Shown here: positions 10,428 to 10,937 of the stretch, one piece after another
Layout of the letters: each line of letters begins with the position of its first letter
How positions within the stretch are numbered: the first letter of the stretch is position 1
DNA from: a virus
Lineage: Duplodnaviria > Heunggongvirae > Uroviricota > Caudoviricetes
Virus record (IMG/VR): IMGVR_UViG_2548876855_000021
DNA length: 13,469 bases
Reading direction: 5' to 3' (one strand)
The notes under the pieces: model-generated
What the model was told of the DNA's origin: nothing
Databases searched by the model: none
Seen by the model: the letters and a program-made list of their open reading frames with translations, nothing else
Program-made: the position numbers and the translations under genes

Positions 10428-10937
10428 TCACTTTTTTTCTGATTGATAAATTTCATTAACATCATTTTTTCTTAACATAATTAATTCATGTTCGCGAACA
10501 TTAGATCCGATTGATTCAATTAATCCTTTCAGCTGGCTTTTGATTTTCAATTTTTCTGCATTACACGACAAAAAACAATCATCATATGATATTTCATTTT
10601 CTTTTTTTTGCGGTGTATTACAGAACTCACAATAAATATCTGCAAAATTATTTAAATAGAAATTCGCCTGTGATACAACATCTATTCTTTGTAGATCTAT
10701 AAAGTATTGGTCTTTAAGAAGACTAAATCTTTCAATGAGTAATGATAAGTATTTTTCCCTGTCACTGATTGAATATAATTCATCACTTAACTCTTTTAAT
10801 AATTGCTTCTTATCATCAAGTGCATCAACAATACCTTTCAATATATCTTTCGATGATTCAATATCTTGCTCTACTTTCTCAAGTTCTCTTGAAACAATGA
10901 CTTGATCATATTCAGGATAAATTAATTGCGCTTTCAA
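10428..10937 (-). CDS. Coiled-coil segment with a CxxC...CxxxC motif (putative zinc hook) of an SMC/Rad50-like ATPase; no canonical start codon
   Basis: 169-aa ORF rich in E/K/L/Q heptad-like sequence with CEFC-X17-CFLSC in the middle. The track start is TTG with poorly spaced Shine-Dalgarno sequence; it is in frame with the upstream ORF and separated from it by a single TAA (10968-10970). Confidence 0.45.
   Translation of the reverse strand: MKAQLIYPEYDQVIVSRELEKVEQDIESSKDILKGIVDALDDKKQLLKELSDELYSISDREKYLSLLIERFSLLKDQYFIDLQRIDVVSQANFYLNNFADIYCEFCNTPQKKENEISYDDCFLSCNAEKLKIKSQLKGLIESIGSNVREHELIMLRKNDVNEIYQSEKK

What the first reader, a model, noticed from the sequence alone, without database searches (positions are those of the whole stretch)
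10428..10937. CxxC-X17-CxxxC cysteine cluster inside the coiled-coil segment (putative zinc hook)
CEFCNTPQKKENEISYDDCFLSC lies in the middle of the coiled-coil ORF, where Rad50/SbcC-type proteins carry a CxxC zinc hook that mediates dimerisation at the coiled-coil apex. That would imply a Rad50-like dimer architecture for this ATPase.
Basis: partly seen in the sequence, partly recalled or inferred. Interest (0 to 1): 0.45.

Follow-up and report, generated by a model that had tools for sequence, protein, structure and literature searches.

The report
Zinc-hook remnant in dead Lamassu gene
The cysteine pair flagged here is the known "zinc hook" at the tip of the coiled-coil arm of LmuB, the SMC/Rad50-like sensor of the Lamassu anti-phage system. 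In this E. coli O157:H7 satellite prophage the gene is broken by mutations, and the other two cysteines are not part of the hook, so the finding is real but ordinary.

Summary
The peptide CEFCNTPQKKENEISYDDCFLSC is encoded on the minus strand at 10563-10631. The spacing is CxxC-X14-CxxxC, not X17.

The 169-aa ORF 10428-10937 is the middle third of lmuB, the Rad50/SMC-like ABC ATPase of a short Lamassu (ABC-3C) operon, lmuA-lmuC-lmuB. The operon sits in the defence hotspot of a P4-like satellite, Sp2 of E. coli O157:H7.

- **CxxC:** invariant in 174 of 174 full-length homologues. It sits in the loop between the two long antiparallel helices in AlphaFold models. It aligns with the CPMCG hook of the solved Salmonella LmuB (9hqu). 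The hook reading is therefore correct, but it is already published for LmuB.
- **Third Cys:** a Tyr-to-Cys change (TAT to TGT) seen only in the E. coli alleles (0 of 174 homologues).
- **Fourth Cys:** Cys in only 81 of 174 homologues, otherwise Ala, Ser or aliphatic. Both downstream Cys lie at positions i and i+4 of the descending helix, probably core positions rather than metal ligands.
- **Gene status:** lmuB is a pseudogene here, with a TTA-to-TAA nonsense change and two 1-base homopolymer indels. lmuA is frameshifted. No intact allele was found in 5,426 complete E. coli genomes.

Interest is low.

The parts
10620..10631 (-). CEFC, the CxxC zinc-hook motif of LmuB (residues 324-327 of the reconstructed 606-aa protein; C103 and C106 of the ORF)
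   Evidence: Invariant in 174/174 homologues and in A1/A3. Lies in the loop 98-117 with a small beta-hairpin between helices 8-97 and 118-168 of the ORF model. Aligned to CPMCG of 9hqu_A.
10563..10577 (-). CFLSC, two further Cys (residues 342 and 346) in the first two turns of the descending helix. They are not part of a conserved metal site.
   Evidence: Position 342 is I/V/L/Y/F in homologues, with 0/174 Cys; the codon is TGT here and TAT in P. mirabilis. Position 346 is C 81, A 38, S 16, the rest mostly aliphatic. Helix assignment.
10428..10937 (-). The finding's ORF (169 aa): the coiled-coil and hook fragment of pseudogenised lmuB
   Evidence: PADLOC LmuB PDLC03863 E=3.4e-20, profile positions 230-386. 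No Pfam hit. RefSeq calls it a hypothetical protein. Sakai annotates the whole gene as pseudogene ECs_0293.
10968..11600 (-). lmuB N-terminal head fragment (ATG at 11600; Walker A GGSDSGKT at 11478-11501), ending at the premature TAA 10968-10970
   Evidence: PADLOC LmuB E=8.4e-50, profile 3-199; Pfam AAA_23. TAA here versus TTA (Leu) in FDAARGOS_946 and P. mirabilis. Coordinates.
9780..10427 (-). lmuB C-terminal part: the rest of the descending coiled coil plus the C-terminal head (signature-like FGKGTRA at 10089-10109; Walker B FVVLDS at 10002-10019). The listed ORF is 9780-10346.
   Evidence: PADLOC LmuB E=5.1e-37, profile 428-608; weak Pfam DUF3732. Coordinates.
10432..10438 (-). A7 homopolymer run (T7 on the plus strand) with a +1 insertion relative to the intact homologue. 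Its length varies among O157 assemblies (A5, A6, A7).
10404..10408 (-). A5 homopolymer run with a -1 deletion relative to the intact homologue (A6). Shared by the three E. coli alleles compared.
11593..12051 (-). lmuC (ABC-3C middle component 2), intact. Its end overlaps the lmuB start by 8 nt.
   Evidence: Pfam MC2 E=6e-30; PADLOC LmuC E=2.5e-36. Full-length match to P. mirabilis LmuC. Start context.
12051..13057 (-). lmuA (effector plus CTD6), split into two ORFs (12641-13057 and 12051-12668) by a -1 deletion near 12652
   Evidence: PADLOC LmuA PDLC03852, profile 10-140 and 141-333; Pfam CTD6. Single gap versus the intact 335-aa P. mirabilis gene.
13061..13420 (-). 3' remnant of the P4-type integrase. 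In the matching genome IS1203 is inserted just beyond the window end.
   Evidence: Pfam Phage_integrase. RefSeq annotation of L001: partial integrase flanked by IS1203.

Best explanation
The CxxC at 10620-10631 is the zinc-hook motif of LmuB. LmuB is the short (606-aa) Rad50/SbcC-like coiled-coil ABC ATPase of a Lamassu (ABC-3C) anti-phage operon, lmuA-lmuC-lmuB. The operon is carried in the integrase-proximal defence hotspot of a P4-like satellite, Sp2 of E. coli O157:H7.

In an intact relative, each LmuB folds back on itself so that its N- and C-terminal halves form one ATPase head. The CxxC loop then sits at the far tip of a coiled coil of about 110 residues per arm. Two protomers are joined at their tips; by analogy with Rad50, two thiolates from each protomer bind one Zn2+ (inferred, not shown). 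In solved Lamassu complexes the hook-proximal coiled coil is the docking platform for LmuC and the C-terminal domain of LmuA. This holds the effector as an inactive monomer until the heads sense DNA ends, after which LmuA is released and oligomerises.

The two downstream cysteines are not ligands of a conserved site. They occupy i and i+4 positions at the start of the descending helix. One is an E. coli-specific Tyr-to-Cys substitution. The other is a Cys/Ala/Ser/aliphatic position.

In this window the system is dead. lmuB carries a nonsense mutation and two homopolymer indels, and lmuA carries a frameshift. The flagged ORF is therefore a relic, not a working protein.
For: **Family assignment**
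- PADLOC LmuB, LmuC and LmuA and Pfam MC2 and CTD6 hits cover all fragments.
- RefSeq annotates ABC-three component system proteins here.

**Apex position**
- Full-length model of the 87%-identical P. mirabilis protein: helices 205-224/233-317 and 339-439/444-448, with C324 and C327 in loop 318-338.
- Model of the window ORF itself: pLDDT 91.8, helix 8-97, loop with beta-hairpin carrying C103 and C106, helix 118-168.
- Foldseek top hits are LmuB structures 9uxh, 9hqx, 9hqu, 9nyg and 9ux7 (E down to 5.5e-15), then Rad50.

**Motif homology**
- The profile alignment puts the CxxC on CPMCG (349-352) of 9hqu_A.

**Conservation**
- CxxC 174/174, of which 101 are CPxCG. Third Cys 0/174. Fourth Cys 81/174.

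**Literature**
- LmuB has a Zn-hook dimerisation domain, and the hook is required for defence in the Salmonella system.
- A canonical hook (285-CQYC-288) is juxtaposed at the distal end in Bacillus LmuB.
- Short LmuB proteins have 0, 1 or 2 CxxC copies, and the apex contacts LmuC and the LmuA CTD.

**Pseudogene status**
- Lesions mapped against an intact operon.
- All 309 E. coli carriers are at least 99% identical.
- Sakai ECs_0293 is annotated as a pseudogene.
- Repairing the three lesions gives a 606-aa ORF with dN/dS 0.115 against P. mirabilis, so the decay is recent.

**Location**
- The P4 defence hotspot lies between the integrase and psu-delta-sid.
Against: - Zinc has not been observed directly in any LmuB structure; both preprints report insufficient local resolution.
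- The hook is not universally needed for LmuB dimers. The Vibrio cholerae DdmC clade lacks it.
- This subfamily's motif (CEFCN / CDNCG) departs from the common CPxCG.
- I could not obtain model coordinates or a dimer model, so distances between C346 and the CxxC, and the dimer geometry, are untested.
- The fourth Cys is conserved throughout the subfamily at 43% identity or more. A subfamily-specific role is therefore not excluded.
Confidence: 0.85

Rival explanations
1. The four cysteines form one intramolecular Cys4 zinc finger or ribbon inserted in the coiled coil (CxxC...CxxxC within a single chain), rather than an intermolecular Rad50-type hook.
For: Four Cys within 23 residues is unlikely by composition (191/100,000 shuffles). 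The fourth Cys is conserved in all homologues of 43% identity or more. Some distant homologues carry extra Cys or His in the hook loop (63/174 with at least one extra Cys).
Against: The third Cys is absent from all 174 homologues, including the 87%-identical intact protein, where it is Tyr (TAT versus TGT). That position is always I/V/L/Y/F-like. The fourth position is Ala, Ser or aliphatic in more than half of homologues. Both lie at i and i+4 on a helix predicted with high confidence. This pattern fits buried coiled-coil positions better than a zinc knuckle.
Confidence: 0.05
2. The cluster is a chance or decay product of a pseudogene and has no functional meaning.
For: The gene is inactivated. 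The third Cys is a lineage-specific substitution at a conserved hydrophobic position. A lone CxxC arises in 4.8% of shuffles.
Against: The CxxC is invariant in 174/174 homologues down to about 20% identity. dN/dS in the hook region (codons 310-350) is 0.062. The motif aligns with the hook of a solved LmuB.
Confidence: 0.05
3. The three lmuB fragments (and the two lmuA fragments) are expressed separately and reassemble into a working split Lamassu. On this view the 169-aa hook ORF would be a genuine small protein.
For: The window allele keeps all three pieces in one frame. RefSeq calls each piece a CDS. From general knowledge, Rad50 heads have been reconstituted from separately expressed N- and C-terminal halves.
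Against: The same-frame arrangement is an accident of an extra A in a run that is A6 in Sakai and most strains and A5 in another. The middle ORF starts only at a TTG inside the coding sequence. The fragments lose the continuity of the coiled coil that tethers the heads. All carriers belong to one near-clonal lineage (at least 99% identity), so retention says nothing about selection.
Confidence: 0.03

Closest known systems
LmuB of short Lamassu / ABC-3C systems (solved examples: Salmonella enterica LmuACB 9hqu/9hqx; Bacillus LmuAB 9ux7; Vibrio cholerae DdmC 9ny5/9uxh)
   Same: ABC head with Walker A GGSDSGKT and a deviant Walker B hhhhDS. About 600 aa. Coiled coil of roughly 110 residues per arm. 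CxxC at the apex. Operon order lmuA (effector plus CTD), lmuC (middle component), lmuB. Best PADLOC, Foldseek and PDB-profile matches.
   Different: Only 12-14% identity to the solved proteins. The hook reads CEFCN instead of CPxCG, with the shortest loop in the family at 14 residues. The partner modules are MC2 and CTD6, with an LmuA N-terminal effector domain that has no Pfam or PDB match. In this genome the gene is a pseudogene.
Rad50 / SbcC zinc hook (e.g. P. furiosus Rad50 hook, PDB 1l8d)
   Same: CxxC at the turn of an antiparallel coiled coil emerging from an ABC head. Rad50 structures follow the LmuB structures in the fold search. The literature derives Lamassu from SbcCD.
   Different: Much shorter coiled coil. 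No Mre11/SbcD partner; it works with LmuA and LmuC, which dock near the hook rather than at the heads. The fragment model matches 1l8d only non-significantly (E 0.37). The function is abortive-infection defence, not repair.
P4-like satellite defence hotspot cargo
   Same: The operon lies between delta (ogr/Delta-like) and the integrase of a P4-like element that also has primase, Icd-like, Sid and Psu genes. This is the described hotspot.
   Different: A 2026 survey reports that recognisable defence pseudogenes are rare in P4 satellites (under 1% of pseudogenes). Here both lmuA and lmuB are inactivated in place.

Membership tests
Lamassu LmuB (ABC-3C coiled-coil ABC ATPase) | Significant match to LmuB profile models over the whole length | tested here: met
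   PDLC03863: E=8.4e-50 (profile 3-199), 3.4e-20 (230-386) and 5.1e-37 (428-608) for the three fragments.
Lamassu LmuB (ABC-3C coiled-coil ABC ATPase) | Walker A Gx4GK[ST] and short-Lamassu Walker B hhhhD[Q/S/T/E] | tested here: met
   GGSDSGKT at 11478-11501 and FVVLDS at 10002-10019. The motif definition comes from PMC12663957.
Lamassu LmuB (ABC-3C coiled-coil ABC ATPase) | Long antiparallel coiled coil inserted between the N- and C-terminal head halves | tested here: met
   AF2 models. Foldseek top hits are LmuB structures.
Lamassu LmuB (ABC-3C coiled-coil ABC ATPase) | Operon with LmuA (effector plus CTD) and LmuC (middle component) | tested here: met
   LmuA/CTD6 and LmuC/MC2 lie immediately upstream. 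The same order is seen in the intact P. mirabilis locus.
Lamassu LmuB (ABC-3C coiled-coil ABC ATPase) | Intact, expressible gene conferring phage defence | tested here: not met
   TAA nonsense plus +1 and -1 indels in lmuB, and a -1 in lmuA. No intact E. coli allele was found. The defence phenotype cannot be tested with these tools.
Rad50/SbcC-type zinc hook | Conserved CxxC at the apex of the coiled coil | tested here: met
   174/174 conserved. Located in the loop between the two long helices. Aligned to the hook of 9hqu.
Rad50/SbcC-type zinc hook | One Zn2+ bound tetrahedrally by two Cys from each of two protomers, mediating dimerisation | not testable with these tools
   Only monomer models without coordinates were available. 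Published LmuB maps did not resolve the metal.
Rad50/SbcC-type zinc hook | Partner Mre11/SbcD nuclease bound at the heads | tested here: not met
   No SbcD/Mre11 gene in the operon. The partners are LmuA and LmuC.
Intramolecular Cys4 zinc finger/ribbon | Four conserved metal ligands within one chain | tested here: not met
   Third Cys 0/174; fourth Cys 81/174 with Ala, Ser or aliphatic replacements.

The most novel reading that the evidence does not exclude
In this enterobacterial MC2/CTD6 LmuB subfamily, the downstream Cys conserved in all homologues of 43% identity or more (residue 346, 18 residues after the CxxC) might take part in an atypical metal or redox site at the hook, for example a 3+3 or asymmetric coordination across the dimer. 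Separately, the A5/A6/A7 run at 10432-10438 might reflect slippage-driven switching of a split but still active system in O157:H7.
Probability: 0.04. Interest if true: 0.35.

Novelty: already known. Interest (0 to 1): 0.12.

Why it matters
It matters little beyond annotation. The result names three 'hypothetical protein / AAA ATPase' ORFs of O157:H7 prophage-like element Sp2 as fragments of one dead lmuB. It shows that the flagged cysteine pair is the family's published zinc hook. It also separates that pair from two incidental cysteines.

Two minor points of interest remain:
- This is a clear case of a defence system decaying in place inside a P4-like satellite, something a recent survey found to be rare.
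- The intact 606-aa relatives in Proteus and Pantoea represent an uncharacterised Lamassu subtype. It has a non-CPxCG hook and an LmuA effector domain that matches no known family.

Tried and rejected
- **Alternative genetic code or sequencing error as the cause of the in-frame stops.** Rejected. Three of the four internal stops are TAA. The lesions are shared by 309 complete genomes. The length of the A-run at 10432-10438 does vary between assemblies, and some of that variation could be assembly error.
- **Search for an intact allele in E. coli.** None found; every match is at least 99% identical. FDAARGOS_946 lacks the TAA but is still frameshifted.
- **Pfam on the middle ORF.** No hit.
- **Foldseek of the 169-aa fragment model against the PDB.** No match at E<=0.001. 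The hits were generic antiparallel helical hairpins (axonemal proteins, PI3K p85 iSH2, HlyD), with LmuB 9hqx_B at rank 13 and Rad50 hook 1l8d at ranks 35 and 44. This is consistent with the hook reading but does not discriminate.
- **Identity of the LmuA N-terminal effector domain.** Pfam and PDB sequence searches gave nothing. The GDKGRD...QCK pattern looks like a restriction-endonuclease-fold motif, but that is only my reading.
- **Four-Cys zinc finger idea.** Rejected on conservation.
- **PADLOC and Pfam on the 318-aa ORF at 2067-3023**, near the other end of the satellite. Nothing significant.
- **The original ABC-3C classification paper (Krishnan et al. 2020).** It did not come up in the one literature search I ran for it. 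I relied instead on papers that cite it.

Full report
**1. What is in the sequence**

The finding's coordinates, 10428-10937, are exactly one mechanically listed minus-strand ORF of 169 aa with a TTG start. Its translation contains CEFCNTPQKKENEISYDDCFLSC. The four Cys codons are at 10629-10631, 10620-10622, 10575-10577 and 10563-10565. Fourteen residues separate the second and third Cys, so the pattern is CxxC-X14-CxxxC, not X17.

Four of the six Cys of the reconstructed protein fall within 23 residues. Only 191 of 100,000 shuffles reach that clustering, while a single CxxC appears in 4.8% of shuffles. Composition alone is therefore weak-to-moderate evidence.

**2. What the ORF belongs to**

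Translating the minus strand shows that ORFs 10968-11627, 10428-10937 and 9780-10346 lie in one frame. They are separated only by stop codons. Together they cover a single PADLOC LmuB model, PDLC03863:
- profile positions 3-199, E=8.4e-50
- profile positions 230-386, E=3.4e-20
- profile positions 428-608, E=5.1e-37

Immediately upstream on the same strand are:
- LmuC, the ABC-3C middle component 2 (Pfam MC2, E=6e-30)
- LmuA, which carries a CTD6 domain and is itself split into two overlapping ORFs
- the 3' end of a tyrosine integrase

The region is 100% identical to E. coli O157:H7-type chromosomes. The annotation around it shows primase-helicase, Icd-like, Sid, Psu and Delta genes, then this operon, then an integrase. 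That is a P4-like satellite, named 'prophage Sp2, P4-like phage' in strain Sakai. The operon sits in the P4 defence hotspot described between the integrase and psu-delta-sid.

**3. The gene is a pseudogene**

Intact 606-aa homologues exist in Proteus mirabilis (P0001, 87% identity) and Pantoea alhagi (P0002, 75% identity). In P. mirabilis the operon is complete: LmuA 335 aa, LmuC 152 aa and LmuB 606 aa.

A DNA alignment against that operon pins down three lesions in lmuB:
- TTA to TAA at 10969
- a +1 insertion in the A-run 10432-10438 (A7 versus A6)
- a -1 deletion in the A-run 10404-10408 (A5 versus A6)

lmuA has a -1 deletion near 12652, and lmuC is intact.

The lmuB region occurs in 309 of 5,426 complete E. 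coli genomes, all at 99% identity or more. Three alleles were compared:

| Allele | A-run 10432-10438 | Codon at 10968-10970 | -1 deletion at 10404-10408 |
|---|---|---|---|
| Window | A7 | TAA | present |
| Sakai (same run length, by alignment length, in most listed strains) | A6 | TAA | present |
| FDAARGOS_946 | A5 | TTA | present |

The 'all in one frame' look of the window allele is therefore an accident of two compensating indels. Sakai annotates the gene as pseudogene ECs_0293.

Repairing the three lesions gives a 606-aa ORF that is 87.6% identical to P0001. Its dN/dS is 0.115 overall and 0.062 around the hook. The gene was therefore under purifying selection for most of its divergence, and the decay is recent.

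**4. Is the Cys cluster a zinc hook at the apex?**

*Conservation.* In 22 homologues the CxxC is invariant even at about 25% identity. A profile search of 1.84 billion representatives returned 3,470 hits. I aligned 174 full-length sequences:
- The CxxC is present in 174 of 174, and 101 of these read CPxCG.
- The third-Cys position is never Cys. It is I, V, L, Y or F.
- The fourth-Cys position is Cys in 81, Ala in 38, Ser in 16, and mostly aliphatic in the rest.

The third Cys is TGT in the window and TAT (Tyr) in P. mirabilis.

*Structure.*
- The AF2 model of P0001 (pLDDT 84) has long helices 205-224/233-317 and 339-439/444-448. The only intervening non-helical segment is 318-338, which carries C324 and C327.
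- The two arms are of nearly equal length, and the N- and C-terminal halves form one head. The loop must therefore be the distal tip.
- The window ORF modelled on its own (pLDDT 91.8) gives helix 8-97, a loop with a small beta-hairpin bearing C103 and C106, then helix 118-168. C121 and C125 lie in its first two turns, at i and i+4.
- Foldseek of the full-length model returns Lamassu LmuB structures first (9uxh_F at 5.5e-15, then 9hqx, 9hqu, 9nyg and 9ux7), followed by Rad50.
- A profile search of PDB sequences aligns the CxxC onto CPMCG (349-352) of 9hqu_A, the Salmonella LmuB.

**5. What is known**

- The Salmonella LmuACB preprint states that LmuB has a zinc-hook dimerisation domain at the end of the coiled coil. 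It also reports that the hook is required for phage defence, that LmuC and the LmuA C-terminal domain bind near the hook, and that the zinc atom could not be resolved.
- The type I/II structure preprint describes a canonical hook, 285-CQYC-288, juxtaposed at the distal end in Bacillus LmuB. The metal was again unresolved.
- A 2023 review notes that many but not all LmuB proteins have a CPxCG-like hook.
- The PNAS study shows that short LmuB proteins (about 600 aa, Walker B hhhhD[Q/S/T/E]) have zero, one or two CxxC copies. The Vibrio DdmC clade has lost the hook. Lamassu probably derives from SbcCD.
- The window protein fits the 'short, one hook' class: 606 aa, Walker A GGSDSGKT and Walker B FVVLDS.

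**6. Mechanism**

*Shown here.* The family assignment, the apex position of the CxxC, its invariance, the non-conservation of the other two Cys, and the inactivation of the locus.

*Inferred from the family.* Two LmuB protomers are joined at their tips, presumably through one Zn2+ bound by four thiolates as in Rad50. The hook-proximal coiled coil, together with LmuC, sequesters monomeric LmuA. DNA-end sensing by the heads then releases LmuA, which oligomerises and kills the infected cell.

*The two downstream Cys.* They are best explained as consecutive buried positions of the descending helix. That fits the hydrophobic or small residue spectra seen in homologues and the i/i+4 spacing. I had no model coordinates and no dimer model, so this is an inference.

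**7. Rivals**

- **An intramolecular Cys4 finger.** Contradicted by conservation.
- **A pure chance cluster.** Contradicted for the CxxC, but it is a fair description of the third Cys.
- **A functional split system.** Contradicted by the allele comparison and by the lack of any independent support.

**8. Verdict**

The feature is a published property of LmuB, and in this genome it is a relic in a pseudogene. Novelty: already known. Interest: low.

Noticed in passing
window 10432-10438: The homopolymer run in lmuB differs in length between complete O157-lineage assemblies: A7 in the window and ERL04-3476, A6 in Sakai (and, by alignment length, in most listed strains), A5 in FDAARGOS_946. This could be real slippage or homopolymer assembly error. 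No run length restores the gene, because the downstream -1 deletion persists in all three alleles compared and the TAA persists in two of them.
   Followed up: partly
window 12051-13057 (lesion near 12652): lmuA is also inactivated by a single-base deletion relative to the intact 335-aa P. mirabilis gene. Its N-terminal effector domain (about 200 aa, with a GDKGRD...QCK pattern) has no Pfam or PDB sequence match, so the effector type of this Lamassu subtype is unassigned.
   Followed up: partly
window 9780-13420 as a whole: A recognisable defence system is decaying in place inside a P4-like satellite hotspot. A 2026 survey (PMC13586616) reports that under 1% of pseudogenes in P4 satellites resemble defence genes and argues for swapping without pseudogenisation. 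This O157:H7 element is a counter-example, fixed in 309 genomes.
   Followed up: partly
homologues P0035, P0048, P0052, P0060 and others (hook loop; alignment): Many distant LmuB homologues carry extra potential ligands after the hook, for example CPLCGxxPxxxH-x4-6-C-[DE]-G-[ND]. 63 of 174 have at least one extra Cys in the loop, usually together with His. This hints that some LmuB hooks may complete a metal site within one chain. Only 2 of 174 have a second CxxC.
   Followed up: partly
window 13061-13469: The P4-type integrase is truncated at the window end. In the identical genome (NZ_CP032808) an IS1203 element splits it, whereas Sakai has an intact intS. The satellite in the window strain is therefore doubly immobilised.
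   Followed up: partly
window 2067-3023 (+): A 318-aa hypothetical ORF lies beyond the primase end of the satellite, in the region described as a minor P4 defence hotspot. It has no significant PADLOC or Pfam match.
   Followed up: partly
window 11593-11600: The lmuC stop and the lmuB start overlap by 8 nt (ATGAATGA). The same overlap occurs in the intact P. mirabilis operon, which suggests translational coupling.
   Followed up: no
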